From the human T2T-CHM13v2.0 reference genome, Homo sapiens: a DNA stretch of 64,000 nucleotides. The position numbers and the translations under genes were made by a program. The notes beneath the pieces were generated by a model, which ran no database searches, was not told the DNA's origin, and was given only the letters and a program-made list of their open reading frames with translations. The stretch is taken from NCBI RefSeq assembly GCF_009914755.1, contig NC_060947.1, one strand, 5' to 3'. Positions 16,251 through 55,150 of the stretch are shown here, in pieces (the first letter of the stretch is position 1; every line of letters begins with the position of its first letter).

Positions 16251-16794
16251 AGAGAAGTCTTTTTATAGTTATATGCGTTAAGCTTTTTATAAATGACCTG
16301 AGCATCTTTCAAAACGTTGTTGGGCACTCCCTGCTGACCAAATGAAGTACGTTGTTCTAGTTTTTTTCTCACCCACTCTCCAGGCCTGGCAGTAGGCCAA
16401 CTGCCCACTTGCTGGCCACTGACCTCCCCCTGGCCTTGTCCATGCTCAGCTCATCTGCTTGGACCCAGCAAGGCCTGTTCTGTCATGGTCACAGCAAAGC
16501 AGGATCTATTTCACTTGGTGCAGGGAGGCTGCACCAGGTGCCTAGATCTGCATGTCTCCATGAAGCCAAGGTGGCTGAGCTCACATCCCTGTAAGCTTCT
16601 TCTCACACCTCTGATGCCCCTATTGTCCTCCACAGTATTCTGACATCTGACAGTTTCTTGGCACCACTGCAGTAACCAAATGGCTGGACAGAGTCAGGAT
16701 TCTGGGTGGCCAGGATCAGTGAGGCCACCACCATGACAATCAGGTCATCAGCACATATAGCTGCCTTCAGGCCTGGCATGGTCTCCAGCGCCTG

Positions 16795-17575
16795 GGCAGA
16801 CTAGTGCAAGCATCTCAGGTTCCAAGCGCAAGGGCAGGTTGGTGGCCCGAAGGTCCCCAAAACCCTAGTGTACTGGCATGCTGGTGGTCAGAAAAGCCCC
16901 TTGGGGCATCAGCATGAAGGAAGGAAGTGGCTGGAAGGGCCCCCTGGGGCTACAGTATGAGGTCCAGACAGAGGCTGGAAAGGACTTTGTTTCCACAGCA
17001 CGTGAGCAGGTAGATGGCCAGAAGGGCCCGGGTTCCCCAGCGGATGGGCATGGTGGTGGCTAGAAACCCCAACAGGTTATACAATGATTGAAAGGGCCAC
17101 TGGGTCCAGAGCTAAGCGGTGGGTCAGTGACTGGAAAAGACCCAGGGTCATCAGTATGTGGCATGCATGATTGCTAATAGGGCCTGAAGTTCTACAGACC
17201 ACAGACAGGCTGCTGACCAGAAAGGACCCTGGGGTACTAGCGCCCAGGAAAAATGTTGGTTGGAAGGGCAACAAGGTCTGAACATATGGCTTCCCTGGTG
17301 GCTGGAAGGGACTCCGAGGCTCCAGCCGGCTGGACAGTTGGTTGCTGATAAGGCTGTAGGTTCCATACCACACAGGCAGGTTGGTGACTAGAAGGAAGGC
17401 CTGGTTGCCAGAACAGGAGAAGGATGGCCGCCAAAGCCCTTGGTTCTCTAACTTGTGGGCAGCTCAGTGGTAGAAAACTGAAACAGCCCAGTTACTTCAG
17501 TGTGGGATGGAAGGTGACTGGAAGGACCCAAGTTTACTCAACACATAGGCAGAGTGGTGACTGGAAAGTCATGTC
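16795..17575 (+). repeat. GC-rich degenerate tandem array, left segment (~42-44-bp monomer)
   Basis: The GAA of the core ggtggccagaaggg recurs at 16849, 16891, 16934, 16978, 17021, 17063 and at 17220, 17263, 17305, 17347, 17390. Confidence 0.85.
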
Positions 17576-30900: not shown

Positions 30901-32527
30901 ATGTGCTCCAGTTGACACAGCAGGCAATAGGCTGATGGCACAAAAAAAAAAAAAAAGAAAAAAACACTCCTTGGATTAGCAGCATGCCAGCAGTGTATAG
31001 CAGGAAGAAGGCCAGAACCCTCCTAATGGAAAGTCTGGTGCCTGAAATGTTCCCTGGAGCACTAATTTGTTGAACAGTAGCCAAATGTCTCTTGATTTAT
31101 TCACTTGTAAGGCAGACTGAGGTCCAAAAGACCCTATGGTACCCCTAGGAGAGGCCAGTACTGTGACCTAAAATGCTGTCATTTCTACTACCCATGGATA
31201 GTCTGGTGGCCAAAGAACCCTAGGTTCTCCAGACAGAGGATGGGCTGGGGACAGGCAGAGATACCCCAACCCTACATTTTGAGGAAAAACTGGTGGCCTG
31301 AAGTTTTCCCGACACACAAGCACTCTGGAGGTAGAGTGGCCGAAAGGGTTTCCAAGGCACCACTGTGCTGGGATTTCCAACAGGTCCCTAATTCCATAGT
31401 AATGGATCTAGTGCCCATAAGGTCTCACTGGAATCTAATGTGTGGGCAGTCTGGTCTCCGAAAAGGTCCATGGGGGCATAAATACAAGGGGAGAATGTGT
31501 CTGGAAGTTCTCCAGGGTACCAGCGCACTGTCCAACACATGTCTAGAAGAGCCCCAGAGTCCTAGAGGTAGGGGTGTACTCAGTGCCCAACAGATTCTAG
31601 GCTTCACAACCTATAGAGAAGGTTGTGGTCCAAAAGCTATCGCAGTTGCCCAGCGTGCAGACAGGGTGGGGACCATGAAGACCCAGAGGCCCTTAAAGAC
31701 CAAGCCATCTGGTGTTCAGAAAGTTCCCGGGGACAGAATTTATGGGAAAGTCAGTGACCAAAGAGTTCCAGTTGCCATTACAGATGGGCTAGCTGAGGGC
31801 TAAGAGGGTCATTGGTTCCCTGGAGCCATGCCTGTGGGGAAGAGAAGGGTTTTCCTTTCCACATCATATGTGCAGGCTAATTGCTGAAGAACCTTTGGTT
31901 TCCAGGCACACAGGATGATTCTGGGCCAGAAGGAACTCCAGAACCCTAGCAAGCGGGCATGCTGATGGTCAGGTATTTTCACAGGTCCTCTCGATAGGAG
32001 AAGGGTGGACACTTGGTGGAAAAAAGGGCCCAGAGTACTCCTGCAGTGACCTGTACTGTGACCCAACATGACCCAGTTTCAACAACAGGCTTGCAAAATG
32101 ATGACTGGTGAAAACTCAGGCCCTTGGCATGCTTGTGTATTGTGTGCCAGAAGGAAATCCAGAAATGTCTAGAGCTGAAAGGGCCTTCATGACACTACTG
32201 TGTTAGGAGTACAGGGCCAAAATGGGCACCAGTATGCTGGAAGTATGGTTCTCAAAAAGGCTGTACATTCCACCACACAGGGTCTGACTACTGTTAACCA
32301 CCCACAGAACTCCAGTGCATGGGCAGTCTGGTCACCAAAAGGGCTTACTGGGCAGCAGTGCCAGGGCAGATGGTGTCCAAAAGTATGATCTTAGGCACCA
32401 GTGAGGTGACAGGCTCATGTCGGGAAGAGTCCTGGACCTTGAAAGGGTACATTAGACCCAGGCGGAAAGACCTGGTCCTGCTGACAGTCTAGTAGGAGGA
32501 ACGCAGGTTCCATCACATAAAAGAGCT

Positions 32528-33085
32528 AGAGATGAATGGAGAAAGAAAATGTAATGTGGTACTTATAGACAATGGAGTACTATTCAGCCATAAAAAGAAT
32601 GAGTTTCTTTTGCAAGTCATTTGCAACAACATGAATGGAACTGGAGATCATTATGTTGAGTGAAATAAGCCAGGCACAGAAAGACAAACATCTGATGTTC
32701 TCAGTTATTTGCAGAATCTAAAAATCAAAGTAATTGAACTCATGGACATAGAGAGCAGATTGATGGTTACCAGAGGCTGGGGGTGGTAGTTGTGGGCTGG
32801 GGTGAGGTGGGGTTGGCTAACGGTTACAGAAAAAAAGAGAAAGAATAAATAAGACCTTCTATTTGATAGCACAATAGAGTGACTATAGTCAACAATAATT
32901 TAATTGTACATCTTAAAATAACTTAAAGAGTGTAATTGGATTGTTTGTAACTCAAAGGATAAATGTGTGAGGGGATGGATATCCCATTCCCCATGTTGTG
33001 CATGTTTGTATCAAAACATCTCATGTACTACATAAATATATACCCCTACTGTGTACTGAAAAAAATTAAAAAATAAATAAATGAT
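32528..33085 (+). mobile_element. L1MA (L1MA1-3-like) 3' end inserted in the array
   Basis: caatggagtactattcagccataaaaagaatgag...taattggattgtttgtaactcaaaggataaatg followed by an A tail; the array resumes in register afterwards. Confidence 0.9.
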
Positions 33086-35758
33086 TTTGTTTTAACAAAA
33101 GAAGGATCCCTGGACACCCCTGTGAGGGACAGACGGTGGCCAAGAGGCCTCAAAACTCCCAGGCTTGTGGACTTCCTGAACGCATGAAGGGCTAAGGGTT
33201 CCTGTGGCAGATGTCAGTGCCCTGACCATAATCACTCTCCTTCCATTGCAGGCAGGCCGGCAGGTAGCTAAAGAACCCGAGGTTCCCCAGCACACAGTCA
33301 GATGTGCTAGAAGGAATTCCAGAACTCAGGGAGTTGGTGAGCCTTGTGACCAGAAACTTCCCCAAGTCACCACCGTGATGAAGGTGTATCAGTCAAAGAT
33401 GCCCTAAATCACGAGCTTTCTGGATGGATTGTTGACAATAAGGCTCTAAATTTCACAGTGCAGAAGACAGCTGGTGTATAAGCATCCCTTGTAACCTAGT
33501 GTGAGGCTTTCTGGTAACTAAAAGGTCATCCAAGGCACAATGCAAGGGGACACTGTGTCGAAGGGCCTTTGGGGCACCAATTTGTTTCCAGGCACATGTC
33601 TGTAAAAGCCATGGGGCCACAGAAGCTAAGATGGGCCAAGGCTGAAAGTGCTTTCAGTTCTACATCTCGCAGGATGTTTGATACTCCACAAAATCTTGTT
33701 TCCCTAGCACAAAGTCAGGCTGGAAGCAGAAGGACCCTGGGGACCCTCATGAGAAGGACTTCTGCTGGCCAAAACTTTCCCCAGGACACCAGTTTGGTGG
33801 CCAGACAGTGAACAAAATGGCTCTTGATTCCTCTGCTTATGTGCTGTCTAAGGGCTGATAGGATTCATGGTTTCCCTATGGTTGGTCTATGCTATGGCCA
33901 AAAGTGCTCTCATTTCCACAGCAGACAGCAGCTGATTACAGAAACTCCTTGATTCCCCAGTACATGAACAAGGTTTGGCCAATAGAAAACCTGAAACCCT
34001 AGGTGGCTGAAAATTCAGTGGTTGTTAAGGTTCCCCAGAACACCAGTGAAAGGGAGTGGAGATATGGTGACAGAAATGGCTCCCTCACACCAGCACTCTA
34101 GACTGATTGTTGCCAATAGGGCCTTATATTCCAATTTTTGTGCCTCCATAGCACAGGAGGAGGCTGGTGTTCATAAGTGCCCCTAGAAACCTATTGTGAG
34201 GGTTATCTGGTCACCAAAAGGGCCCCAAAAGGACCTTGCAGCAGTGCATGGGCAGAAGTTTCCGGAAGAGCCCTGGGGAGGCAGAGGGTGGGATGATACA
34301 AAACTGGAAGAGTTCCATATCAGACAGGATGGCTAATAGCCAATGATCCCTGTTTCCAAACACACAGGATTTAGTAGAGGGCAGAAGGCCCCCTTGGACA
34401 CTAACACATGAGAAGTACCTTGGCCAAAAGGGTACTAATGTCCACAGCACACAGGCTGGCTTATGGCCAACAAGGTCTTGTGTTCCATGGCACAAGAGCA
34501 CGCTAGTGTGCCCATAAGTGCCCCCAGGAACCCAGTGTGTGGGATGCCTGGTTGCTAAACAGGTGAGTAGGACATCGGTGTAAGGGCAGGAGTCTCTAAA
34601 AGTGCCCCTGAGGCACAAGTGTGCTGGTAGGCTTGTGTCCAGAGGAATCCCAGGGACAAAGAAGGTGGAATGACCAATGTCCAAAGGGCCCTGGGTTCCA
34701 CAGCCTATAGAGACACTGATGGTCAAAACAGTACGTAGTTCCCTAGCACACAGGCAGGCTATAAGGACCTGTGGAACCGCAGTGGGAGGGCTGGCTGGTG
34801 GTTGGTATGTTGCTAGAGATACCAATGCATGGGAAGGACAGTGGAAAAGGGTTCTAGATTCCACAACACAGAGATTGACTGAAGGCCAGAAGGGCCCTTG
34901 GTTCCCCAGTGAGAGACCTGTGCTGTGAACTGAAAAGGTTCTAGTTTCTGCATCACATGGGCAGGCTAGTTGCTGAAGAACCCTCAGTTCCCTGAAAAGA
35001 GGACAGAATGGGGGCCACAAGGAAACCACAAACCCTAAATAGTGGAAGGTCACCAGAGCAATGGAGGTACAGTGTCCAAAAAGGCCTCAGAGCACTAGCA
35101 TTCTGAATGGGCTTACTAATAGAGCCAATGTTGTATGGCAGGGGAGTTGGCTAGTGACTATACAAACCTCCAGGATACCAGGGAGGAGCAGTCAGGTCAC
35201 TGATAGAGTATCTAGGGCACCAGCTCATGGGGCAAACCATGATTGGAAGTACCCTCAGGGTACCAGCACCAAGTCAGGCATGTGTCCCTAAGCGTCCCTG
35301 TGCATAACGGGGATCAAAGTTAAAAGGGATCTAGGTTCCATGACAGTTCAGACTGCTGGTAGCCCTGAATCTTTATACCCTCAATACAAAGGCAGGCTGT
35401 GGAGGTTGGTGAGGTGAAAGGACTCTGGAAACCCTAATGGGCAGGCTGACTGGTGGTCAGAAGGTTCCCCAGTTCTGTGGACAGACCGCAGGTGAAAAGG
35501 TTTGCTTCCTCAGCTTGTGGGCTAGCAGAGGATCTGCAGGGCCCACAGTTCTGCAAGAGGCCAATACTGTGACTGAAAGTGTTCTCTTTTCCACAGCAGG
35601 CACCAGGCTGATCCCCAAAGAAACCTCAATCCCCCGGCAAACAGACAAGCTGGGTGACAGAAGGAAGCTAGGCACCCTTGGTGACAGGATGGTTGGTGGC
35701 TGGAAGGTTCCCCAGGGCACAAGTATGCTGGAGGTTTAGTAACAGAACAGGGCCCCAT

Positions 35759-36062
<304 letters not shown>

Positions 36063-36069
36063 AGGGTCT

Positions 36070-36503
36070 TGTGTTAGTTTGCTAGGGTTGCCATAATAAA
36101 ATACCACAGACATCATGGCTTAAACAACAAAAATTTATTTTCTCACAGCTCTGGAGGCTGGAAGCCTAAGATCGGAGTGTTGGCAGGTTTGGTTTCTTCT
36201 GTGGGCTCTCTCCCTGGCTTGCAGATTTCTGGGCTTGCAGATTCCTTGACTTGCAGCCTTCTCAATGCATGCCCTCACTTGATCTTTCCTCTGTGTGTAC
36301 AGGTTTGTGTTCAAATTTTCTCTTCTTATAAGAATATTATCATCTTATATGACATTAAATCATATAGGATTAGGGCCCAGCCATATGACCTCATTTTATT
36401 TTAGTTACTTTAAAGACCCTGTCTCCAAATACAATCATATTCTGAGATACTGGGGGTTTGGACCTAAACATGAATTTTGGAGGGCACAACTCAGCTCATA
36501 ACA
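36070..36503 (-). mobile_element. MLT1 (A0/B/C-like) solo LTR inserted in the array
   Basis: tgtgttagtttgctagggttgccataataaaataccacaga...ggcttaaacaacaaaaatttattttctcacagctctggaggctggaag...cagctcataaca. Confidence 0.9.
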
Positions 36504-37355
36504 TACCCCCTTGTACAAACAATCTGGATAAATGGTTGTCAATGGGGTCCTACATTTTACAGCACAGGAACAGGCTAGTGCCCATAAGGGTCCCTAAGAC
36601 CCCTGTGAATGGGCAGTCTTGTCACCAAAAAGGCATCCGGGGCACCAATGCGGGGACAAACTTAGACTGGAAGTGCTCTGCCAACACCCTGCAAGCCACG
36701 TGTCAGTTAAGAGTCTCAAATCTGAAGAAGGTAGAATAGACTGAGGAAGAAAGGACTCTCAGTTCAACAGCAGGCAGGGTGCTAGTCAGAAGAGTACTTG
36801 GTTTGTTACAATCCAAACTCCCAGCAGAAACTAAGTACAAACAGACTTGTACCTAAAAGGACCCATAGATGCTATGGAGCAGGCTGGCTGGTATTTGATA
36901 GTTCCACAAGGATGTTAATGAAGGGATGTCAGTGGCTAAAAGGGTACTAATTTTCATTGCACACTGGCTAGTTAAGGATGGAAAAGGCCATCGAAAGGAA
37001 AGGCACAAGGCCTATTCAATGACCAAAAGGATTCTGGTTTCATCCCACTGGAAGACTAATGGCCGAATAACCTTTGGTTCTGCAGTGTATAGACTCAACC
37101 GGAGCTGAAATGACCCCTGGATAGCATGCCGATGGGAAGTGGCTGCCTGAAAGTTTCCCCTGAGCAGGAGTATTAGGAGTATGGTGGCCAAAAGGGGCAT
37201 CAGTGTGCTCAACAGCTGGCTGCCAATTGGAAAAATATTTCACAGCACAGAAGCAGGCTAGTGCCTATAAAGGCCCCCATACTACCAGAATGTGGGTAGT
37301 CCTCTTGCTGAAGGGGCATCAGGACACCAGTAGATGGGCAAACTGTATTTAGATG

Positions 37356-37613
37356 TTCTGCCCCTTACTAAATCCTGTGTGTTTGGAAACAGGGATCATT
37401 GGCTATTAGCCATCCCGTCTGATATGGAACTCTTCCAGTTTTGCATCATCCCACCCTCTGCCTCCCCAGGGCTCTTCCGGAAACTTCTGCCCATGCACTG
37501 CTGCAAGGTCCTTTTGGGGCCCTTTTGGTGACCAGATAGCCCTCACAATAGGTTTCTAGGTGCACTTATGAACACCAGCCTCCTCCTGTGCTATGGAGGC
37601 ACAAAAAATTTGG
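37356..37613 (-). repeat. Inverted near-identical copy of 34131-34386
   Basis: Reverse-complement match with about 4 internal substitutions plus end differences; the same peptide (TKSCVFGNRDHWLLAI...KVLLGPFW) appears in ORFs on opposite strands. Confidence 0.95.
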
Positions 37614-40600
37614 TCACCAGCATTGTGCCAAGCAAGTGTCCAGAATGGCACCAAGGTAGCACAGGATGAGATGGAGTGATGCCCAAAAGGTTGTGGATTC
37701 CACAGCAGATTGGACAGCCTATGAACCCTCATATCACCAACACAAAGACAGCCAGGGAAAAATAATTGGAATCCTAGGGGGCAGGCTGACTGTTGGTCAG
37801 AAGTTTCTCTAGGGCACCAGCTCCATGGATGGATGGTGAACAAAATGGCTTTTGCATTCTCAGCTTGATAGCTAACTGAGAGCATGTAGAAGTCATAGTT
37901 TCCTATCTGGAGGCCAGTAATATAACTAAATGTGCTCTTGTTTCCACAGCATGCAGAGGAAAAATTGGCAAAGAGCTTTCAGTACCCTAGCATGCAGGCA
38001 ACCTGTGAGCCACAAGGAAAGCCAGAACTCTAAGGAGCAGGAAATATGGTGACTAGGAAGTTTCTGCAGGGCACATCCCAGATGGAGATGCACTGGTAAA
38101 AAGAGGCCTGTGCATCTGCGTTCTGAATGGATGTTTGTCAATAGGGCCCCGTATTCCACCACATGGGAGCAGGTTATTAGGGCTACCCTGGCACCCAATG
38201 TGGAGGCAGTCTGGTCACAGGGTACAGAGGGCAGCAGCGCCAAGGCAGAATGTTTCTGGAAGTGATTCTGGGGTGCCAGCGCCCTAGCTGGTACAGGTAC
38301 GAAGAAACACCCAGGGTCCTAGAGTTCAGGATGACTGGATGCCAAATGGCACAGATCCACAGCATGTGAGGGAAAGTGATGGTCAGAAGGGTACACAAGA
38401 GAGGTAGGGATGGTCCAAAGGGGTCTGTGTTCCCAGACCTATAGAAAGGGTGATTGATGATCAGAGGGTATGTGGTTCCCCAATTCTTCAGGCAGTCTAG
38501 AAGCCATTAGGACATGTGGAATTCCAGGGGCCAGGACAGCTGGTGTTCTAAAGTTCCCCAGGCACACTAACGTGGGGAGGGAAGCGACTGAAAGAGTTCT
38601 AGGATTCATTGCACATGGGGTAGTTGAAAGCAGAAAGAATCAATGGCTTGCCAGTGCGAGGCCTGCCAGAGGCCAGAAATATTTTGGATTCTGACTTGTG
38701 CAGGCAGGCTGGTGGCTAAAGAACCTTCCCAAGCACGCTCAATGACTTGTGACAGGAAGGAGTCCCGAAATCCTAATGAGGGAAGATTCACCAGGTTATT
38801 CACACCAAAAGATTAACTGTGTGGGGCCCTGAACAATCACCAGAACTTTAGCAGGAGGTCAGACTGTTGATAGGAGGATTCCCCAGGGCACACTCGTGAG
38901 GGACAGATGGTGGTCAAGAGGGATCATGATTCCTGAACTTTTGGTCTGCCTGAAGGCGCAAAGAGTTCATGGTTCCCTTGCAAGATGGTAAGGCTGTGAC
39001 CAAATAGTCTCTTTTCCACCTAGGATGGGCAGGCTGGTCCCTAAAGAACCCTTGGTTACCGAGGGCATACACAGCTAAGGGCTGACAGGAAACCTGGGAC
39101 CATAGTTGGCAAGAAATATGATGGAGGTTCCCCAGGGCACTCCAAAGATGGAGATGTGATTGCAAAAAGAGGCCCCTGTGTCCCAGGGTTCAGGATGGAT
39201 GGTTGCAAATAAGGCCCTGTGTTCTACTGTACAAGTGAAGGCTAGTGCCCGTAAGGGCTCTCCTGAACCTAGTGTGCAGGCAATCTGGTCCCAGAAAGGA
39301 CCTGGAGTGCCAGTTCCCTAAACAGCACATGTACAGAAGAAGAGCCCATGGGTTCATATAGGTCGGAATGGGGATGGATATGATGCCTAAGGGGACTGAA
39401 TTTCCCAGTTCGCAGTGTTGGGGTGAGCACAGGGGACATAAGGACACACAGAACCATAGTGGCAGGCCCAGATGGCTATAAAAAGGTCCCCAGGGACACT
39501 AATGAGTGGGAAAGAACTATACCAAAAGAAACCTTGGTTCCATCACAAGCAGTGTAAGGTAGGACAGGAAAGACCATTAGGATCTTGATGCTAGGCCTGC
39601 CCAGTAAGTGGAAAGAATTCTGGATTCTACATTATGCAGACAGGCTGGTGGCTGAAGAAACTTTGATTCCAAGGAAACTCTGATGACTCTGGGTCAGAAG
39701 GTGCTACAGAACCCCAGCAGGGCCCACATAGGGGATCAGACATTTCCCCAGGGTACCCACACGGTTAGCTTAGTAGGGGAAAAGGACAGTGGCCGAAATG
39801 ACTTATCCGTGAAAGCAGAGTACCAAGGCTTCCCCACTATGAGGTGTATAGGGTGACTAAACTTGCTCCAGTTCCAACAGCAGGCAGGAAAACTCATGAC
39901 CAAAAACCTCTCAGAACCCAAGCATGGCCAGGCAGGGAAGAACCCAGAAACGTTATGGCCAGAAAGGCCCTGAAGTCACTAACACCATGAAGTAAAGGTG
40001 CCAAAAGGGGTCCCCGATCTCTAGAGTCTTGTTACCATGATTTTCAATTAGGGCCACATATTCCATAGTATGTGATCTTGCTGTGGCCCATAGGACCCCA
40101 GTTCACAGTCAGTCTAGACGCAAAAAGATTTCCCAAAGTAGCAGCGCTGGGGCAGATGGTGTCCCGAAGTCCTCTGTCCCTGCCCCTGGCACCACAAAAG
40201 GAGCTGGCATATGTCCAAAAGGATCCTGCGGTGTAAGAGGTTGAGATGGACCCAGGTTGAAAGGCCTAGTCCTGCTGATGGCCCTAGTAGGAGAAGCCCC
40301 CGTTTCCACCCTAAAAGGATTGTATGAGGACATGAAGGATCCCTGGAACGCTGGCGAGAGCAGAGATTGGTGGCTGGAAGCTTCCCTGGGGACACCCACA
40401 AGAGGGACAGACAGTAGCTGAAAAAATCGTGATTCCTGAGATTGTGAATTCACTCAGTGCCTAAAGGACTCGTGGTTCTCCCGCAAAATGCCAGTGGCCC
40501 GATGGTAAATGCTCTTCTTCCACCAAAGGAAGGCAGACTTGTCACAAAAGAAACTTAGTCTTCCCAAGGACATTAACATGTGGGTAGTCCAGTGACTGAA

Positions 40601-41941
40601 ATGATTTCAGCCTCAATTCCATACATGGACTAGCTGAGGAGCAGAAGAAACATAAGTTCCCCTGGCCTGTCCAGTGATCAAAAGGATTCTGGAGTCTGAA
40701 TCATTCAGGTGGGTTGATGGCCAAAGAACCTCTGTTTCTGAGGTACATGAGATAATGGGGCCAGAAAGAGCACTGGAACCCTAAATGAAGGGGCACATCT
40801 GTGGTCAGATTCACCAGGATATACGCACCGGGGGAAGGATGGTGGTAGGGACTAAAGGATCACCAGAACCCTGGTGAGCAGTCAGACTATGGATAGGAAG
40901 ATTCTTAGGGGTATTTGCAAGGCACAGACAGTGGCCGAGAGTGGTCATAATTTCTGAACTTGAAGCTTGGCCAAAGGCAAGAAGAGCTTATGGTTCACTT
41001 GCCCGATGAAAGTGCTGTGACCAAAAATGTGCTTCTTTCCAGCTCATGCAGGTAGGTTGTTCACCCCTAGGGGCTGGAGGCCAACAAGAAACCTGGAACC
41101 CTAGCTGGCAGAAGTATGATAACCAGAAGGTTCCCCAGGGTACCACAAAGAGGGAGGTATGGTAGGGAAGTGGTTCTGAAAGGATGGTCACTAACAAGAC
41201 CCTGTGTTCCACACAAGGGTGCAGGTAAGTGCCCATAAGTGCTCTCCTGGAACCCAGTGTGAAGGCAGCCTGGCTTCATAAAGATTCTACAGGGCAGCAG
41301 TGTCCTGGATGGCACGTGTTCAAAAGAATCCTAAATATCCTGAATGTCAGAACGGAGATGGACAAATGCCCAGGTGTCTAGATTCCACAGCCTAAAAAAA
41401 GTATGATGGTCGCAAGTATACATTGTTCCCCAGCTGATGGGCAACCAGTCTACAGACTGTAAGGACACAGGGAACCATAGACATTAGCCCAGAGGGTGAT
41501 GGGAAGGTCCACAGGGATTCTTGGTACCACTGCAAATGGGGTCACAGGACTGGAAGGGCCATAGGTTTCCTTCCCCAAACCTCTCCCCAAAGGCCTGTCC
41601 TTTCCCTGGGGCAGCCACAAGAGGGGCAGATGGCTGCTAGTGCTCATAATTCCTGAAATTGCAGCTAGCTCAAGGCCTGAAGAACTCACTTCTTCCCTGT
41701 CCTAAGTCAGTACCCTAAATATAAATATAAATAATACAAATGCTCTCCTTTCACCACAGGAAGGCAGGTGGATCATATGATAACTCTCATTTCCCCAGAG
41801 ACACAGGATACGCGACAGCAGGAATCTAAAAACCCTAGCTGGTGAGAAGTCTAGTGGCCAGATGGTTTTGAGGCAATGCCCTGGTAGAGGGGCAGTGGAG
41901 AAAAGGGGTCCCAGTACTAGAGTGCTGGATGGATGTCTTCT

Positions 41942-42353
41942 TGTATTAGGCCGTCCTGGCACCGCTATAAAGAAATACCTGAGACTGGGTAGTTTATAAG
42001 GAAAGAGGCTTAATTGACTCACAGTTCTGCAGGATGTACAGGAAGCATAGTGGCAACTGCTTCTGAGGAGGTTTCAAGAAGCTTCCAATTATGGCAGAAG
42101 ACAAAGGGGGAGCAGGCACATCACATGGTGAAAGCAAGAGTAAAAGAGAAAGAGAGTGGAGGGAAGGTGTCACACACTTTTAAAGGACCAACTCTGTGAA
42201 ATCGGGGCCACAGCTCACTTAACATCAAGGGGATGGCCCATTTATGAAGGATATGCCCCTTTGATCCAAATACCTCCCACCAGGCCCACCTCCAAATTGG
42301 GGAATACATTTCAACATGAGATTTGGGTGGGGACAAATATCCAAACTATACCA
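41942..42353 (-). mobile_element. MSTB-like solo LTR inserted in the array
   Basis: tgtattaggccgtcctggcaccgctataaagaaatacctgagactggg...gagatttgggtggggacaaatatccaaactata. Confidence 0.9.
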
Positions 42354-42899
42354 CTGCCTTTAGGGAATTGTGATCCATGGCATGGATGTAGGCTAGTGCC
42401 CATAAGGGCTATCTTGGAACGCACTGGGCAGACAGCCTGGTCTCAGAAAGGGCCTACATGGCATCAGCACCAGTGCAGAATGTATCTGGAAGTGCTCCTG
42501 GGGTGCCAGTGTCCAGGCAGGGTAAGTCCAGAATAATGGACAGAGACCTAGAGGTGGGGATGGACACAACGTCCAGTGGGCTCTGGGTTCTGAAGCCTGT
42601 AGGGAGGTGAGGGGTGCAAGGGTACAAGATGCCCCAGCTCACAGTCACACTGGCACCATAAGGATGCACGGAACCTAGGGACTGGGCCAGTTGCTGTTCA
42701 GAAAGTCTCCAGGAACACCAGCACGTGGGCAGGTATGTGATCAAAAGAGTTACAGATTCAATTGCATACAGGCAATGAAGATTGGACATGGCATAGATTT
42801 TTTTTCTAGCATCAAGCCTGCCTGGTAACTGGAAGGGTTCTGGATTCTGCATCATAGAGGCAGGCCAGTGGCCTACGAACCTCTGTTTTCCAGGCAACC

Positions 42900-44330
42900 C
42901 AGATGCTTCCGGGCCAAAAGGGGCCCTGGAAGCCTAGCAAGGGACCATGTCAGTGGTCAGAAGGTTCCTCTGAGCGCCCACACTGGGGACAGGGGTTGGG
43001 GGTGGGGGCGTAAGGGAAAAGGAAGGAATGTACGAGTACAGAGTGTGGCCAAAATTGCTCCAATTTCTGATCGCAAAGTCCCCGCAATATCCCAGTGTGA
43101 GGTCTGTACTTTCACCGAACTTGCACAGGTTTCTACATTAGAAGAATTTACGAGCAGAAAAACACCAGGTACCAAGCATGTCTGCGGACTGTAGGCAGGA
43201 ACGATCTCAGAAACTTTTAGGGCCGGAAGGGACCTCTTGACATCAGTGTCACGGAGTACGGCTGCCAAAAGGCGCCCCGTGGCAGCAACATGCTAGAAGT
43301 TTGGTTGCCAGTGGTGCCATATATTCCGCTGCACAAAAGCTGGTTAGGGTCCCTTGTTATCTCATGTCGTGGGCATTCTGGTCACAAAAAAAAAGGTTCC
43401 CAGGGCAGCAGTTCCTGGGTAGATATTATCCAACAGTGCCCTCCTCGCCGCCCCAATACGGTAGCAGGTATGTTATCTGGAAAAGTCCCAGGGTCTAAGA
43501 AAGCGAAATAGACTCAAACTGAAAGGACTCGTGCTACTTAAAGCCTAAAAGGAGCCCAGGGTTCCACCGCATGAGGACTGTCGGGGGGGGGTGTTAGGGA
43601 TCCCCGGAACCCTGGGGAGATGGCTAACTGGTCACCGGAAGATTCCAGGGCACCTGTGTGAAAGAGAGACGGTGGCCTAGTGGGCTCAGTATTCCCTAGA
43701 TTGCTGGATGACCCCGAAGGTTCTGAAAGGATCATATTTCCTCTGCAAGAAGCCACTATCGGTACTGGAAATGTTCTTTACATCGCTGGCGGGCCGGCGG
43801 GTTGCAGAACTTCTCAGTTCCCCAGTGCTCGCGCCGTCTTGTGGTAGGAGGCAACCCGGAACCCTAGCTGGTGGGAAGTTTGGAGGACAGAAGGTTCCCC
43901 AGGGTACTAGCCGGGTAGAATTAAGACCAAATGCGTTCCCTAAGCCCCCGCCTCCCCCTCCCCCCAACTCTGGAAGGATGATAGTAGATCCCTGTTACCC
44001 ACGGAAAGGAGCAGGTTATAACCTGTAAGGCACCCCTGGAAACCAATGCGCGTGCAGTCTGGTTTCAGAAAGGGCTCTTAGGCCCCCAGCGCCAGGACAG
44101 AAAGTGTCCGGAAGTGCTCTCAGATACGACTGAAGTGGCAGGTACAAGTCTGAAAGAGTCCTGGATTCTGAGCGTGAGATGGACCCAGGCCAAACGGGCT
44201 AGTTCTGCTGATAGCTCTGGGTTCACGGAAAGGGTCCCCCAAGGCCCTTCGTACGGGTGAGATGATTGCTGCCAGGGCCCTGGGTTCTTTTAGGCTGTCT
44301 TAGGTAAACAGTCTGATGCTTCCAAGGCCT
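42900..44330. promoter_or_regulatory. CpG-retaining candidate promoter formed from the terminal array units
   Basis: Visibly more CpGs than the rest of the window. GC box CCCCGCCTCC 43946-43955, CCAAT 44043-44047, NRF1-like TGCGCGTGCA 44047-44056, ETS CCGGAAGTG 44108-44116. Confidence 0.6.
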
Positions 44331-45235
44331 TCGCTACACCAGTTCTTGGTCATGCTGGTGCCCCTAAGGATCTGGGTCGGCATCTGGAGGGCTGTAAATT
44401 AGCCTGAAGGACCACTGGCCACCTGTGCCTCATCAGGCTTGTGTTGCAAGGACCATGTTTCCCCATAGGGGATTTTTGGTTGGCTTCTACTCTTCTGGGA
44501 TCATTGCATGAGAGCTAGATAATGACTAGATAGTGCCCCTGAGCCCCAGCACGAACAGTGGCTGCTCCTCATGTACTCTTTGCTCCTGGAACTCCTATCT
44601 AGTACTTTTCCAGGGAGAAATATATCCCACTGCAATCCTAAATTTAACTAAACTGCCTTTTACAAACAAGATGACAAATTCTCAAAAACAAGAGACTTGG
44701 AAATTTACCATCCTTGCACTAGTCCAGAAAACTCTTCTTGTATAAACAAGAAAAGCAGGGAAGTATATGCAAAAGAAGTTGCAATGCAAATCTTATCCAT
44801 GTAAATAAAGGGATGTTTAAGTAATTTTGATTAATGCTATTACAGAAGATAATATGCAGATTATAATTCCTGAAACAAAAGCTACATTATGTATGCATAA
44901 TTATAATTTGATTCTAGTGGACTAGAACCAAAATCCCAGTAAATAAATTCACATAGTAAAAGAAACAGGAAACACAAATTGGCCTTATCCCTTCTCCTTT
45001 GGGCATGGGGTTCAGGTACAAATTGTTGTTAGTGCAAATGATTTTGTTATGTTTAAAATTTGTTAATTTTAAAATTATATAATTGCCCTTATTATGGAGA
45101 AATGTAAGACCAAATTGAGTTGAATCATTATATGTAATAAAGTACAAGCAGATGGAAAATTTATTCTGCCTGATTATGATATATGTATATATATGATTCA
45201 TATACATAAATTATATACGTAGATGTAATATATAT

Positions 45236-45237
<2 letters not shown>

Positions 45238-45266
<29 letters not shown>
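45238..45266. repeat. (CA)n microsatellite
   Basis: About 14 uninterrupted CA units after a TA-rich stretch. Confidence 0.95.
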
Positions 45267-45269
<3 letters not shown>

Positions 45270-45585
45270 GCCAGAAGTTTCACCTGGCAGGGACTAGGAA
45301 AAATTTTTATGATTAGATGAATTAATGGCCTTTGTGAACAGTAATGTTAAGATATTTTCAGCTCTATGCTGGCTTATATTCCCCTATATTATTTCAAACT
45401 ATTATGAACTCTTAGTTATACACATTAAACTTGTTTTTATAAGACAAGGAAAGTCCAACCTTGCAGGCACCAGATCTCTGGTGAGTTTGGCTTTCCAAAC
45501 CCAAAGCAGAGCTGAGGACGGTAGAAATAGGAGATAAGAGAACATCTATTTGCAGAAAGGTATGACCCAGAAATTAGATGACAAA

Positions 45586-46935
45586 TTTCTTTTTTAAAAA
45601 AATTGTGGGTACATAGTAGGTGTATATATTTATGGGGTACATGAGATGTTTTGATACAGACATGCAATGCGTAGTAATCACATCATGGAAAATGGGGTAT
45701 CCATCCCCTGAAGCATTTATTCTTTGTGTTACAAACAATCCAATTACACCCTTTTAGTTATTTTTTAATGCACAATTAAATTACTATTGAATATAGCCCC
45801 TTTGTTCTGTTATAAAATACTAGGCCTTATTCTTTCTAACTACTTATTGTACTGATTAACCATCCTCACCTCCCCCCATACCCCCAATACCCTTCCCAGT
45901 CTCTGGTAACTATCTCTCTATTCTCTATCTTCATGAGTTCAGTTGTTTTGATTTTTAGATCCCATAAATAAGTGAGAACATGCTTATCCTTTTGTGCCTG
46001 GCTTATTTCACTTAGCATAATAACCTCCAGTCCCATCCATGTTGTTGCAAATGAGAGGATATCATTCTTTTTTGTGGTGGAATAGTACTCCATTGTGGAT
46101 ATGTACCACATTTTCCTTATCCATTCATCTGTTGATGGGCACTTAGGTTGCTTCCAGATTTTGGTTATTGTAAACAGTGCTGCAAAAAATATGGGAGTGC
46201 AGATATCTCTTCAATATACTGATTTCCTTTCTTTTAGTTATATACCCAGCAGTGCAATTGCTGCATCATATGGTAACTACATTCTTAGTTTTTTGAGTAA
46301 CCTCCAGATTGTTCTCCATAGTGGTTGTACTGATTTACATCCCCACCAACAGCATGTAAGGCTTCCCTTCCCTCCACATCCTCGCCAGCATTTGTTATTG
46401 CCTGTCTTTTGGATATAAGCCATTTTAATGGGGGTGAGATGATATCTCATTGTAATTTTGATATATATTTCTCTGATGATCAATGATATTGAGTACCTTT
46501 TCCTATGCCTGTTGGCCATCTTTTCGTATGCTTGTATGTATTCTTTTGAGAAATGTCTATTCAGATCCTTTGCCCATTTTAGAAATTAGATTATTAGATT
46601 TTTTTTCCTGTAGGGTTGTTTGAGCTCCTTATCTATTCTAGTTATTAATATATATTAATATTATTAATATTTCTACTAATTTCTTGTCAGATCGGTAGTT
46701 TGCAAATATTTTTCCCATTCTGTGGGTTGTCTCTTCACTTTGTTGATGGTTTCCTTTACTGTGCAGAAGTTTTTAACTTGATATCATCCCATTGGTCTAT
46801 TTTTGTTTTGATTGCCTGTGCTTGTGGGGTTTTACTCAAGAAATTTTTGCCCAGACCAATGTTCTGGAGAGGTTCCCTGATGTTTTCTTGTAGTAGTTTC
46901 ATAGTTTGAGGTCTTAGATTTAAATCTTTAATCCA
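45586..46935 (-). mobile_element. L1MA (L1MA1-3-like) 3' portion
   Basis: Antisense 3'UTR and ORF2 end ([43 protein letters not shown]). Confidence 0.92.
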
Positions 46936-47184
46936 CTGCCAAATTTCTTTTACCCCAAATATCAGAGAAAGTTAATTGAAGAGGGATCAGCAAAAACCAG
47001 AGTTATGCTATCACAAATTGCGAGGAAGAAATTAATAGTCAGGGTTTCATTTTAGAAATTAACTGAGGAAAATAAGTTTGAGTAAGATATTTTCATTTAT
47101 AAAGGTAGCAACGTCCAATGTCAAAGACAGTTTACTTTAGAAATCATTGGAAAGGAAAATAGGGTACACAGAGAAATATATGTT

Positions 47185-47995
47185 TGACAGCTTTTTTGAT
47201 ATGTGAACTTGACTAGGCTACTGTCCCCAGTTATTCAAACACTCATCCAGGTATTGCTGTGAAGGGATTTTGTAATGTAATTAAACTCTAATTAATTGAC
47301 TTTCAATCAGGTTGAGCCTGACCTAATCAGTTAGAAGGTCTAAAAGCAGGGCTGAGGCTTTCCTGTGACAGAGAAGATATTCTTCCTGTGTACAGTAGTG
47401 TCCACCTGTGCCATGGACAACTTTTGTCTTTTTCATAATTGTCTCTTCCTGACTGCCTGTGGGCACAGTTTTGACCCATGTCCATGGGTTCCAACATGTT
47501 TTTTTTTTTTTTAGACGGTATTTCGCTTTGTCGCCCAGGCTGGAGTGCAATGGTGTGATCTTGGTTCACTGCAACCTCTGCCTCCTGGGTTCAAGCAATT
47601 CTCTGCCTCAGCCTCCTGAATAGCTGGGATTACAGGCACCTGCCACCACGCCCGGCTAATGTTTTTGTATTATTAGTAGAGACGGGGTTTCACCGTGTTA
47701 GCCAGGTTCGTCTTGAACTCCTGACCTCGTGATCCACCTGCCTTGGCCTCCCAAAGTGCTGGGATTACAGGCGAGAGCCACCGCAACCGGCCCCAACATG
47801 TTTATGATAATTCCTTCCTGACTTCCTGCCTTACAGATATTGGACTTCCTTAGCTAGCCAACACAATCATTTTCTTTGTATAAGATCAATCTCTCTCTCT
47901 AATATATCTATGTCTATATCTCTTATGTATACTTATCTTACATATGCCTATCTTATACATACCTACCCTACTGGTTCTGCTTCTCTGGTTGATAC
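47185..47995 (+). mobile_element. MLT2 (ERVL) LTR interrupted by Alu
   Basis: tgtgaacttgactaggcta...gtattgctgtgaagggattttg...ctactggttctgcttctctg. Confidence 0.8.
47499..47792 (-). mobile_element. AluS
   Basis: Antisense dimer; TSD ccaacatgttt. Confidence 0.95.
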
Positions 47996-47999
47996 ATGA

Positions 48000-49560
<1,561 letters not shown>

Positions 49561-52458: not shown

Positions 52459-52764
<306 letters not shown>

Positions 52765-53321
52765 ACACATATGAAATATAAATATACATATGAAAAAAAT
52801 ATATATGTATGAAAGCCCATCTACCCAAAGGGATCATATTCCAAAGATGACAGCTGAAGTTCTTGAAAACATCTTTTTGATTATAAGTATAGCATAAGGA
52901 TGATGTGATTTATTTATTAAATCTGATTATCTTATTTATTTATTAATAATAAATAAATATATGGAGCTTGACCTAAGGTATTAAGTTATATCAATATATT
53001 ATATGTATATAAAATATGTTTAATCAAAACCAAGAGTTATACTAATATTTAAAGTAGTTTTATATATCCCTGCTGTGATTCTTTCTGGGCTGAATTTAGG
53101 GTAACACTTATCTCCCTTATTTCTGAGGTTTTTCCCATAATATGCAGCTTAGCATCGCAATTAAAGTGTATCTTGAATATGATTGCATGTAAGGCTTCAT
53201 GACATGACTCATGTAGATTTGCTAACATACCTGGAGGTGAAGGGTTCTCTTCTCCCAATCTGCCCTGTTTTAAGAAAGTAGAATTGGGGCCTATATGTAA
53301 AGTAGGATTAGAATCGATATC

Positions 53322-54012
53322 CTTTTTTAAAAACTCTTATGTTAGATACAGGGGTACATGTGTAGGTTTGTTACATGAGCATATTGTGTGATGCTGAAAT
53401 TTGAGGTATGATTAAAGCCATCACGGAGGTAGTGAGCATAGTACCCAAAAGGTAGTTTTTCAACCCTTGTTCCTCTCCCTCCCTCCCTCATATTGTAGTC
53501 CCCAGTGTCTGTTGTTCCCATCTTTGTGTCAAGGTGTACCCAGTGTTTAGCTCCCGCTTGAAAGTGAGAACATGCGATATTTGGTTTTCTGTGCCTGCAT
53601 TAGTTCGCTTAGGATAATAGCCTCCAGTTGCATCCATGTTGCTGCAAAGGACATAATTTTCTTCTTTTTATGGGTGCATAGTGTTCCATGATGTATACCA
53701 TTTTTTAAATCCAATCCACCTTTGATGGGCACTTAGGTTGATTCCATGTTTTGTTATTGTGAATAATGCTGCATTGAACATACAGGTGCATGTGTCTTTT
53801 TGGTGGAATGATTTCTTTTCCTTTGGGTGTATACCCAGTAATGGAATTGCTATGTTGACTGGTAGTTCAATTTTTAGTTCTTTGAGAAATCTCCAAACTG
53901 CTTTCCACAGTGGCTGAACTAATTTACATTCCCACCAACAGTATATAAGTGTTCCCTTTTCTCTGCAGCCCTGCCAATGTCTGTTATTTTTTTTCCTTTT
54001 TAGTAATAGCCA
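53322..54012 (-). mobile_element. L1PA (older) 3' end
   Basis: ORF2 C-terminal remnants ([23 protein letters not shown]; IMSFAATWMQLEAIILSEL) and 3'UTR. Confidence 0.92.
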
Positions 54013-54789
54013 AGGAATCAATGTCTTTAATGTTCTAGCAACCCTGATTTAAAATGAGAATGCAAATGGATTTTTATTTTTATTAAAACCATGAATATAT
54101 CCTCCATTTTAAACCTGAATATATCTTTGAGTGTTAAAATTATGATTTTTTCTCCATAAATAAATGATAGAGGAAGAAAAATATAAGGGGTTATTGAGTT
54201 CATATCTTAAAAAATAATTGCAATGAAGTTCTGATAATATTACAGAGGTTATACTTTTTTGCCTGTAAAGACAATCATATTTTAGTTGGTACTCATGGAC
54301 ATGAATTGAAAGAATGAATTGAAATGGATATAATACTTTCATCTATTATTCAGCAAGGTATCAAATGAGGTGTTATGACTTACAGTGAGCAACTTCAACC
54401 TATCATTTTTGCCAATCTAAATATCTGATTAAATGTCAAGCAAGTGCAATGTGAATGTGCTTTCCAGAAATGCTCTAAATAAGTAGAAATGGCTGTTTCT
54501 GTAGCTTTTCTGATATAAGCTGTGCTCTTTTTTTTTTTTTTGAGACATTGAGTTACTAGAACTGAGATGAACACTGGGTACCTCAAAGTGAAAAATGACT
54601 GAATTTCAACTCAGCAGCTTACCTCATGATCTAGTTCCTCTTTCTACTCACCCTCTTTTCATTATGCTTTAGTTGTATTGACCATCTTTAGATTTCTTCC
54701 ACATTCCTTAAATGCTAAGACATGTTGCCTTTTTCAGCCTTCACATTCGTGTTTCCCAGACTGGATAGCTGCACTCACATCTTCGTATG

Positions 54790-55150
54790 ACTGCAGTCTC
54801 TGAAAGATTAATAGGGCTAGAAGATCTGCTTCTAATGTGGCTCGCTCAGATGGCTGCCAATTTGGTGCTGACTGTTAGCAGGGGAACTTATTTTCTCTCC
54901 ACAGAGCTGCTTGAATGTTCTCACAATATGGAAGCTGGCTTCTCCAAGAATGAGCTATCCAAGAGAAAGACAGCCAGACATATTTATACTTTATATAACC
55001 TAGCATTGGAAGTCACATAGTATCACTTCCACTACATGCTGTATTTTAGAAGTGATCACTGAAGAACTCTCCACATTAAGGAGGAGGGGAATTAGATTCC
55101 ACCTTTAGAAGGGAAGAGTGTCAAAGAATTTATATTTTAAAACCACCACA
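54790..55150 (-). mobile_element. MLT1 (J/K-like) LTR fragment
   Basis: ctgcttgaatgttctcacaatatggaagctggcttctcc...tagcattggaagtcacatagtatcacttccac...aaaaccaccaca. Confidence 0.75.

What the first reader, a model, noticed from the sequence alone, without database searches (positions are those of the whole stretch)
42900..44330. Promoter made from the repeat: terminal units kept the CpG-containing motifs that decayed in sister units
Seen: the last two units are CpG-rich while the other units are depleted. The ETS site tgtCCGGAAGTGctc (44108) is positionally homologous to tgtCTGGAAGTtctc (~31498), gaCTGGAAGTGctc (~36667), ttCTGGAAGTG (~38254) and atCTGGAAGTGctc (~42484). Likewise CCAATGCGCGTGCAgtctgg (44043) matches ctaatgtgtgggcagtctgg (~31435), ccagtgcatgggcagtctgg (~32312) and ccaatgtggaggcagtctgg (~38195). 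Many of these differences are CpG-to-TpG/CpA changes. A GC box lies at 43946. Knowledge: methylated CpGs deaminate in the germ line, and ETS/GABPA, NRF1, NF-Y and SP1 motifs typify CpG-island promoters. Inference: every unit once carried promoter-like motifs and only the end unit stayed unmethylated. It may drive a non-coding transcript, either leftward through the array or rightward using candidate donors GG|GTGAGA (~44256) or AG|GTAAAC (~44303).
Basis: partly seen in the sequence, partly recalled or inferred. Interest (0 to 1): 0.8.

Follow-up and report, generated by a model that had tools for sequence, protein, structure and literature searches.

The report
CpG-retaining end of ancient 43-bp array
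The last 1.5 kb of a very old, decayed 43-base tandem repeat on the human X chromosome has kept its CpG sites while the rest lost them, which is the usual footprint of DNA left unmethylated in germ cells and may mark a weak, unannotated promoter.

Summary
Window 31000-44480 is one ancient, degenerate tandem array with a 43-bp base period and about 319 monomers. A detached patch of the same repeat lies at 16782-17572. Only the right-hand 1.5 kb (first to last dense CpG: 42876-44378) is CpG-rich. It has 53 CpGs and o/e 0.47, against 94 CpGs and o/e 0.135 in the other 11.75 kb (p 1.5e-11), while GpC o/e is the same in both.

The 43-bp phase runs through the island, so the island is made of repeat units. 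Of its 44 aligned CpGs, 21 sit on five monomer columns where sister units carry balanced TpG/CpA. The proposed NRF1 site is weak.

Island units fit the consensus no better than other units, so the difference is specific to CpG. The best reading is long-term reduced germline methylation (about 0.85). Promoter activity (about 0.4) could not be tested here, because no expression or methylation data were available.

This is an undescribed locus of a known kind: an intermediate "orphan" CpG island at the edge of a repeat. Interest is moderate.

The parts
31000..44480 (+). Main body of an ancient, degenerate tandem array. Base period 43 bp, about 319 monomers, mean monomer identity about 0.40, GC about 0.5 in an AT-rich desert. 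It lies in intron 3 of the predicted lncRNA LOC105373151 (hub annotation).
   Evidence: Autocorrelation z = 12.0 at lag 43, 5.7 at 86 and 4.1 at 128. Wrap-around profile score 2558 vs 189-234 in 4 dinucleotide shuffles. TRF with loose settings finds three short period-43 runs. Self-BLAST gives 28 HSPs at 65-85% identity with no single offset. GC profile.
16782..17572 (+). Detached patch of the same 43-bp repeat, CpG-depleted (11 CpG, o/e 0.19, GC 0.55). It is separated from the main array by about 13.4 kb rich in dispersed repeats.
   Evidence: 9 hits of model R1, best 40.2 bits and E 1.6e-11. The model was built from the main array only. Composition, sequence. The intervening DNA gave 114,477 first-look candidates in the genome.
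42876..44378 (.). CpG-retaining terminal stretch (intermediate CpG island), about 35 monomers at the right end of the array.
   Evidence: CpG positions and o/e. Best 200-bp windows reach o/e 0.75 (43080) and 0.73 (43660); best 500-bp window 0.61; best 1000-bp window 0.55. Column analysis.
44108..44116 (+). Exact ETS class-I type word CCGGAAGTG, on monomer columns 23-31. It is the only CCGGAAGT in the 64-kb window.
   Evidence: Paralogs read CTGG four times and CCAA once.
43223..43229 (+). CCGGAAG on the same monomer columns. A second copy is at 43635-43641 (+) and a third, on the minus strand, at 42906-42912.
   Evidence: Word counts: island 3 (+) and 1 (-); rest of the array 1 and 1; the 50 kb of flanks 0. 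Rows, sequence.
44043..44062 (+). CCAAT followed by GCGCGTGC and GCAGTCTGG, on monomer columns 0-19. Two of the three ancestral CpGs of columns 4-9 are kept.
   Evidence: It is not within 2 mismatches of the recalled NRF1 palindrome.
43938..43965 (-). C-rich run: a GC-box-like word with one mismatch and a G-quadruplex-type motif on the minus strand.
42985..43016 (+). G-quadruplex-type motif (four or more G runs). No such motif occurs in 31000-42000.
44254..44309 (+). Two 5' splice-site-like words (GT at 44257 and at 44304), 145-195 bp right of the ETS word. The first AATAAA on this strand is at 44804.
   Evidence: Candidates only; no transcript evidence.
32530..33095 (+). Old dispersed repeat (L1 3'-end type by eye, with an A-rich tail) inserted into the array.
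   Evidence: The 39 scored copies elsewhere in the genome (40 scored matches, one of them the query itself) are 79-82% identical, out of 9029 first-look candidates. Sequence. The family name is recalled, not tested.
35758..36520 (+). Alu-type element (35758-36045) plus a second dispersed element, inserted into the array.
   Evidence: Sequence read. The hub lists 35754-36168 as masked. Monomer scores are low here. The family names are recalled.
34135..34386 (+). One arm of a young inverted duplication. The other arm is 37356-37607 on the minus strand; 252 nt, 98% identical.
   Evidence: Minus-strand R1 hits at 37425-37593.

Best explanation
A GC-rich 43-bp minisatellite expanded long ago at this X-linked site. 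It now survives as 31000-44480 plus a split-off patch at 16782-17572. Its ancestral unit probably carried about five CpGs: three in columns 4-9, one inside the CC-G-G-AAG word at columns 23-29, and one at columns 36-37. Methylation in the germ line turned nearly all of these into TpG or CpA.

The last roughly 35 monomers (42876-44378) have spent much of that time less methylated in germ cells. They therefore kept about a quarter of the ancestral CpGs and also hold more CpGs at other positions. The result is an intermediate-density CpG island that contains an exact ETS word, three more CCGGAAG words, GC-box-like runs and two G-quadruplex motifs.

Shown: the array, the CpG contrast, and its position-specific pattern. 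Inferred: the cause is germline hypomethylation (about 0.85). Inferred more weakly: the island is a weak, probably germline- or embryo-restricted promoter held open by ETS/SP-type factors (about 0.4). If so, transcription could run rightward, splicing from 44257 or 44304, for example to the annotated acceptor at 52161, or leftward through the array.
For: - Period and array.
- CpG o/e 0.47 vs 0.135, with the same GpC o/e of 0.87 (p 1.5e-11).
- The CpG surplus (25 per kb) roughly equals the TpG+CpA deficit (31 per kb).
- 21 of the 44 aligned island CpGs fall on 5 of 43 columns (p 5e-9). Those columns show balanced TG/CA in the rest of the array.
- The CG share among CG+TG+CA is 21 of 77 in the island and 35 of 586 in the rest (OR 5.9).
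- CpGs on the other columns are 3.4 times enriched: 23 of 1319 vs 51 of 9755.
- Monomer fit to the consensus is the same, 15.8 vs 16.8, p 0.43.
- CCGGAAG is concentrated in the island, with an exact CCGGAAGTG.
- 5 of the 6 near-matches to the GC box in the whole window lie in the island.
- G4 motifs occur only in the island.
- The right end is truly terminal: there are no R1 hits at E <= 0.01 in 44546-64000 (one weak hit, E 0.21, at 44495-44545, just past the edge) and none in 40 kb beyond each end of the window.
- General principle: sperm hypomethylated regions that are older have higher CpG o/e (Qu et al. 2018, PMC5793779, section 8 read).
Against: - No methylation, CAGE, chromatin or cross-species data could be consulted. 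RefSeq has no TSS or functional element here (hub annotation).
- The island is only intermediate. The best 500-bp window has o/e 0.61 at GC 0.49-0.50, and the stricter 500-bp criteria are not met.
- 56 of 77 ancestral-CpG-derived dinucleotides in the island have decayed.
- The ETS word lies at the right margin, where CpG density is already falling (o/e 0.35 at 44000-44499). That is not the usual geometry for a rightward TSS.
- The motifs are inherited repeat words, so their presence is not independent evidence of selection.
- Monomers are not independent events, because internal duplications copy states. The Fisher p-values therefore overstate the number of independent changes.
- 13 of the 31 paralog dinucleotides aligned to island CpGs are neither CG, TG nor CA.
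Confidence: 0.6

Rival explanations
1. The stretch is hypomethylated in the germ line but is not a promoter. It would be a protein- or structure-bound element (enhancer, boundary, G-quadruplex-protected DNA) at the edge of the array, and its low methylation is a by-product.
For: The same CpG footprint. G4 motifs occur only here. No annotated TSS (hub). The ETS word is off-centre.
Against: No enrichment of the recalled CTCF consensus: 4 matches in the window vs 3.85 expected, with 1 in the array and none in the island. A 1.5-kb footprint with 33 CpG per kb is larger and denser than is typical of distal low-methylated regions (recalled knowledge).
Confidence: 0.2
2. Relic island. The end of the array was unmethylated for a long time (an old promoter or CpG island) but is now methylated and decaying. 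An o/e of 0.47 would be a half-way state.
For: Intermediate o/e, and 56 of 77 ancestral CpG positions already decayed. Qu et al. 2018 report that regions of lineage-specific HMR loss keep CpG o/e above background (section 8). No annotation here (hub).
Against: CpGs at non-ancestral columns are also 3.4 times enriched. That fits continuing tolerance of new CpGs at least as well. Sequence alone cannot separate the two readings.
Confidence: 0.15
3. GC-biased gene conversion at a recombination hotspot, or chance, produced the local CpG excess without any methylation difference.
For: GC is slightly higher in the island (0.532 vs 0.49).
Against: GpC o/e is the same in island and rest, 0.87. The roughly 40 extra CpGs account for more than half of the GC difference. 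The excess is position-specific to the ancestral CpG columns. Chance is excluded at p 1.5e-11. Hotspots are short-lived (recalled knowledge).
Confidence: 0.04

Closest known systems
Orphan or intermediate-density CpG islands; germline hypomethylated regions that leave a CpG-retention footprint (Qu et al. 2018, PMC5793779; the ICP class is recalled from Weber et al. 2007)
   Same: Local CpG o/e about 0.5-0.6 over about 1.5 kb in a CpG-poor background, with sharp edges. There is no annotated gene start. The CpG-specific contrast is the one expected from a methylation history.
   Different: Here the island is made of the same repeat units as 12 kb of decayed sister sequence. That supplies an internal control, which ordinary islands lack. 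Methylation and TSS were not tested.
DXZ4, FIRRE and ICCE: X-linked tandem repeats with CpG-island or CTCF-bound units (Bansal et al. 2020 review, PMC6985041, passages read)
   Same: An X-linked tandem array inside a lncRNA locus, with CpG-containing factor-binding words in the repeat unit.
   Different: Those arrays are homogeneous, with kb-scale or 156-bp units, and carry CTCF motifs. This array is a 43-bp repeat at about 40% monomer identity, shows no CTCF-consensus enrichment, and has only one end CpG-rich. In the passages read, the review names loci at X56, X75, 115 Mb and X130, and none near 28 Mb.
GC-rich minisatellites (10-100-bp units; recalled class)
   Same: A unit of 43 bp, a GC-rich ancestral consensus and tandem organisation.
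   Different: It is far too degenerate to be picked up by standard TRF settings and has old transposon insertions. It is a fossil, not an active variable-number repeat.

Membership tests
CpG island (Gardiner-Garden & Frommer thresholds, recalled: >=200 bp, GC >=0.5, o/e >=0.6) | A window of >=200 bp with GC >=0.5 and CpG o/e >=0.6 | tested here: met
   200-bp windows at 43080 (o/e 0.754, GC 0.515) and 43660 (o/e 0.733, GC 0.55).
Strict CpG island (Takai-Jones thresholds, recalled: >=500 bp, GC >=0.55, o/e >=0.65) | A 500-bp window that meets both thresholds | tested here: not met
   The best 500-bp window has o/e 0.61 at GC 0.486-0.50. The best 1000-bp window has o/e 0.554 at GC 0.53.
Promoter (CpG-island type) | A mapped transcription start, open chromatin or H3K4me3 | not testable with these tools
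   No expression or chromatin data are available. RefSeq shows no TSS here (hub annotation). No paper was found: LOC105373151 gave 0 papers.
Promoter (CpG-island type) | Typical factor words: ETS, SP/GC box, NRF1, CCAAT (consensus forms recalled) | tested here: inconclusive
   ETS is exact at 44108. The GC box has one mismatch at 43946 and four more near-matches lie in the island. NRF1 is not within 2 mismatches. CCAAT is present at 44043. All of these are inherited repeat words.
Germline hypomethylated region | Low CpG methylation in sperm, oocyte or primordial germ cells | not testable with these tools
   Only the sequence footprint could be measured.
Germline hypomethylated region | CpG-specific retention relative to comparable sequence | tested here: met
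   o/e 0.47 vs 0.135 with the same GpC o/e. OR 5.9 at the ancestral CpG columns and 3.4 elsewhere.
X-linked CTCF-bound structural tandem repeats (DXZ4/FIRRE/ICCE) | CTCF motifs in the repeat units | tested here: not met
   Recalled consensus with up to 2 mismatches: 4 matches in 64 kb vs 3.85 expected, and 1 in the array.
X-linked CTCF-bound structural tandem repeats (DXZ4/FIRRE/ICCE) | Homogeneous, recognisable repeat units | tested here: not met
   Mean monomer identity 0.395, with no regular higher-order period. Default TRF finds nothing.
Minisatellite-type tandem repeat | Head-to-tail units of 10-100 bp | tested here: met
   Period 43. Phase is continuous over 319 units.

The most novel reading that the evidence does not exclude
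The locus is the fossil of a very large CpG-dense array: at least 14 kb of repeat over a 28-kb footprint. Each of its 300 or more 43-bp units would once have carried an ETS-type CCGGAAG word and a CGCGCG tract. That would make it an extinct X-linked regulatory or structural macro-array comparable in scale to DXZ4 or FIRRE. Its last 1.5 kb would still be held unmethylated in germ cells and would act as the promoter of an unannotated germline or early-embryo transcript.
Probability: 0.12. Interest if true: 0.65.

Novelty: new member of a known kind. Interest (0 to 1): 0.35.

Why it matters
The locus is a natural experiment. Some 320 copies of one short unit share ancestry, but only the last 35 or so escaped CpG decay. 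The effect of germline methylation history can therefore be read against an internal control.

If methylation and TSS data confirm an active island, it would add an unannotated germline or embryonic promoter in the gene-poor DCAF8L1-IL1RAPL1 interval. It would also be an example of a promoter whose factor sites come from a minisatellite unit.

If the island proves fully methylated today, it becomes a dated example of a dying CpG island. Either result is modest in scope. The principle is textbook, and only the locus and the array are new.

Tried and rejected
- **Loose-gap profile.** This wrap-around profile kept inflating and put about 3000 gaps in 13.5 kb. I rejected it as overfitted and replaced it with a stricter run that has shuffle controls.
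- **Regular higher-order repeat.** None was found; the best monomer lag has z 4.5, and the local best matches are scattered.
- **CTCF-array idea.** No enrichment.
- **Known RNA family.** 0 Rfam matches in 30000-53000.
- **Coding.**
  - ATG-started frames of at least 60 aa overlapping 42500-44700 number 4, the longest 133 aa.
  - Three stop-to-stop frames of 291, 230 and 159 aa have no Pfam match.
  - The 291-codon frame has no early Met and a non-protein-like composition.
- **Copies elsewhere in the genome.** BLAST-type searches with 43600-44330 and with 33200-35700 hit only this locus.
- **Genome-wide search with the repeat model.** Not accepted. Only 40 kb on each side of the window was searched with it, with 0 hits, so distant sister arrays elsewhere remain untested.
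- **NRF1 site.** Not supported.
- **Literature.**
  - LOC105373151: 0 papers.
  - DCAF8L1 + tandem repeat: 1 paper, irrelevant, passages read.
  - Xp21.3 + tandem repeat + CpG island: 1 paper, listing only.
  - DCAF8L1 + methylation: 16 papers, listing only, none about this interval by title or abstract start.
  - 43-bp + tandem repeat + X chromosome + human: 1 paper, irrelevant, listing only.
- **Supplements of Qu et al. 2018.** Only the file list was seen. The tables were not opened, so I do not know whether they list regions that cover this site.

Full report
**What is there**

The finding lies at the right end of a 13.5-kb block of about 50% GC, set in 28-40% GC surroundings. Standard TRF finds no array there. 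Self-comparison gives many direct-repeat families at 60-85% identity and 28 plus-strand HSPs at 65-85% identity with no common offset.

Base-by-base autocorrelation over 31000-44500 shows the real period. Lag 43 has z = 12.0, with harmonics at 86 (5.7), 128 (4.1) and 256 (3.4). TRF with loose settings picks up three short period-43 runs.

A wrap-around alignment of the whole block to a cyclic 43-column profile scores 2558, with 17.0 bits of information. Four dinucleotide shuffles run through the same procedure score 189-234, with 4.6-5.7 bits. An earlier run with cheap gaps was discarded as overfitted.

The block resolves into 319 monomers, and the phase runs without a break through the CpG-rich end to about 44480. 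Mean identity between monomers is 0.395. There is no regular higher-order period, only a mosaic of old internal duplications.

**Extent of the array**

It finds 106 hits at E <= 1 in the window:
- 95 are plus-strand hits from 31016 to 44545.
- 2 are minus-strand hits at 37425-37593. These lie inside a young inverted duplicate: 34135-34386 and 37356-37607, 252 nt, 98% identical.
- 9 fall in a separate patch at 16782-17572 that was not used to build the model (best 40.2 bits, E 1.6e-11).

That patch is GC-rich (0.55) and CpG-depleted (11 CpG, o/e 0.19). The 13.4 kb between the patch and the main array is full of dispersed repeats, with 114,477 first-look candidates in the genome. The array was therefore probably split by insertions; this is an inference.

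There are no R1 hits in 40 kb beyond either end of the window. To the right of 44480 there is only one weak hit, at 44495-44545 (E 0.21). The CpG-rich stretch is thus truly the terminal part.

BLAST-type searches of the whole assembly with 43600-44330 and with 33200-35700 return only this locus. A genome-wide search with the model was not possible.

**Age**

An L1-3'-end-type element at 32530-33095 sits inside the array. The 39 scored copies elsewhere in the genome (40 scored matches, one of them the query itself) are 79-82% identical to it. An Alu-type element and a further dispersed element lie at 35758-36520. The family names are recalled and were not tested.

Array paralogs are as diverged as these transposon copies or more so (65-85%). 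The array is therefore at least as old as that L1 burst. I infer tens of millions of years or more; this is not calibrated.

**The CpG contrast**

| Region | CpG | o/e | GC | GpC o/e |
|---|---|---|---|---|
| Island 42750-44350 | 53 | 0.471 | 0.532 | 0.87 |
| Rest of array 31000-42749 | 94 | 0.135 | 0.49 | 0.87 |
| Left flank 20000-30999 | 53 | 0.164 | 0.342 | 0.964 |
| Right flank 44500-55000 | 73 | 0.225 | 0.352 | 1.026 |

- The binomial p for the island's share of the array's CpGs is 1.5e-11.
- The island's CpG surplus (33.1 vs 8.0 per kb) is about matched by its TpG+CpA deficit (133 vs 164 per kb).
- In sliding 1.6-kb windows the island holds 44-45 aligned CpGs. The maximum among the 102 windows that do not overlap it is 20.
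- The dense run of CpGs spans 42876-44378.
- By density it is an intermediate island. 200-bp windows reach o/e 0.75 and 0.73, the best 500-bp window reaches 0.61 at GC 0.49-0.50, and the best 1-kb window reaches 0.55.

**Are these retained ancestral CpGs?**

In the non-island monomers, five column pairs (4, 6, 8, 24 and 36) carry roughly balanced TpG and CpA with few CpG. For example, column 4 reads CG 12, TG 50, CA 66 and column 36 reads CG 7, TG 45, CA 61. That is the expected signature of an ancestral CpG.

On these five pairs the counts are as follows:

| | n | CG | TG | CA |
|---|---|---|---|---|
| Island | 179 | 21 | 24 | 32 |
| Rest | 1295 | 35 | 218 | 333 |

- Fisher OR is 5.9, p 9e-8.
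- 21 of the 44 aligned island CpGs sit on 5 of 43 columns (p 5e-9).
- CpGs on the other 38 columns are also enriched: 23 of 1319 vs 51 of 9755, OR 3.4, p 9e-6.
- Island monomers fit the consensus no better than the others: mean score 15.8 (n = 38) vs 16.8 (n = 281), p 0.43.

The difference is therefore CpG-specific and regional. It is not a sign of a younger copy or of general constraint.

Three caveats apply. Monomers are related by duplication, so the counts are not independent events. 56 of the 77 ancestral-CpG-derived dinucleotides in the island have decayed, so protection was partial, late, or already lost.

The direct paralog alignments are the third caveat (14 HSPs). They cover only 13 of the 53 island CpGs, and the 31 aligned paralog dinucleotides are TG 11, CA 5, CG 2, AG 7 and 6 others. 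In the reverse direction, 7 paralog CpGs align to the island, and 2 of them are CG there. As a control, an island GpC is conserved in 46 of 88 aligned cases.

**The motifs**

- **Positions.** The six copies of the two-monomer block align at 74% mean column identity.
- **ETS.** The word CCGGAAGTG at 44108 lies on monomer columns 23-31. At its CpG, four paralogs read CTGG and one reads CCAA.
- **CCGGAAG.** It occurs 3 times on the plus strand, all on the same columns, and once on the minus strand in the island. It occurs once on each strand in the other 11.75 kb and never in the 50 kb of flanks. The decayed forms CTGGAAG (12) and CCAAAAG (15) dominate the rest of the array.
- **CCAAT/GCGCGTGC.** The block at 44043 lies on columns 0-19 and keeps two of the three CpGs of columns 4-9.
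- **NRF1.** The word is not within two mismatches of the recalled palindrome.
- **GC box.** The word at 43946 has one mismatch. Five of the six near-matches in the whole window lie in the island.
- **G-quadruplex.** Two such motifs (42985-43016 on the plus strand; 43938-43965, C-rich) occur in the island and none in 31000-42000.
- **CTCF.** The recalled consensus is not enriched: 4 matches vs 3.85 expected, with 1 in the array.

**Transcription**

Nothing here can show a TSS.
- On the plus strand there are two donor-like words (GT at 44257 and at 44304) before the first AATAAA at 44804.
- On the minus strand there are neither donor-like words nor polyadenylation words for 4 kb leftward.
- The annotated last exon of LOC105373151 at 52161 has a good acceptor (hub annotation).
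- The ETS word sits at the right margin of the island, where CpG density is falling. Most of the island would then lie upstream of a rightward start, or downstream of a leftward one.

Direction is left open.

There is no Rfam family and no coding signal. A 291-codon stop-free frame on the minus strand (34211-35086) is longer than in 200 simulated arrays (maximum 288). The repeat consensus has no stop triplet in any frame on either strand. This stretch also holds the best-preserved monomers, and the translation has no early Met and no Pfam match. I read it as a by-product of the repeat.

**Mechanism and rivals**

The pattern has four features. It is CpG-specific, regional and sharply bounded, and it is concentrated on ancestral CpG columns while also visible elsewhere. 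This is what long-term reduced germline methylation produces. Qu et al. 2018 (PMC5793779; section 8 and passages read) show that older sperm hypomethylated regions have higher CpG o/e, and that regions which lost hypomethylation recently stay above background.

My probabilities are:
- about 0.85 for a germline-hypomethylation history;
- within that, about 0.4 for a weak promoter, 0.2 for a non-promoter bound element and 0.15 for a relic that is now methylated;
- about 0.04 for biased gene conversion or chance together. GpC o/e is the same in island and rest, and the excess is column-specific.

**Comparison with what is known**

No paper was found on the locus or the array. In the passages read, the review of X-linked structural tandem repeats names DXZ4, FIRRE (X130), ICCE (X56) and X75 only (Bansal et al. 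2020, PMC6985041). The array fails two defining features of that group: CTCF motifs and homogeneous units.

The island meets the lenient CpG-island thresholds but not the strict ones; both sets of thresholds are recalled. It is best filed as an undescribed orphan, intermediate CpG island at the edge of an undescribed fossil minisatellite. The principle is known, so novelty is 'new member of a known kind' and interest is moderate (0.35).

The boldest reading not excluded is that the whole array was once a CpG-dense, ETS-word-bearing macro-array whose last active piece survives as a germline promoter. I give that about 0.12.

Noticed in passing
window 16782-17572: A detached, CpG-depleted patch of the same 43-bp repeat lies 13.4 kb left of the main array and about 1.2 kb before exon 2 of LOC105373151 (18805-18926). 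The array seems to have been split by transposon insertions.
   Followed up: partly
window 34135-34386 and 37356-37607: A 252-nt inverted duplicate, 98% identical, lies inside an array whose other paralogs are only 65-85% alike. It is either a recent inverted duplication or ongoing conversion between the arms. The local GC skew changes sign around 37000-37750.
   Followed up: partly
window 34211-35086 (minus strand): A stop-free frame of 291 codons, longer than in 200 simulated arrays (maximum 288). There is no Pfam match and no early Met. The repeat consensus lacks stop triplets in every frame on both strands, so this is probably a by-product of the repeat.
   Followed up: partly
window 39750-40500: A minor second rise in CpG within the array: 9-11 CpG per 500 bp, o/e 0.28-0.32, against 0.03-0.23 elsewhere in the array. 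It is well below the level of the terminal island.
   Followed up: no
window 32530-33095 and 35758-36520: Old dispersed repeats are inserted in the array: an L1-3'-end type whose scored genomic copies are 79-82% identical, an Alu type, and one more element. They could be used to date the array if orthologous loci were available.
   Followed up: partly
window 5100-5500, 26600-27300, 47300-48700: These are other stretches of the window with 500-bp CpG o/e of 0.4-0.67. They overlap or adjoin stretches that the hub lists as masked repeats, so they are probably young CpG-rich transposons and not islands.
   Followed up: no
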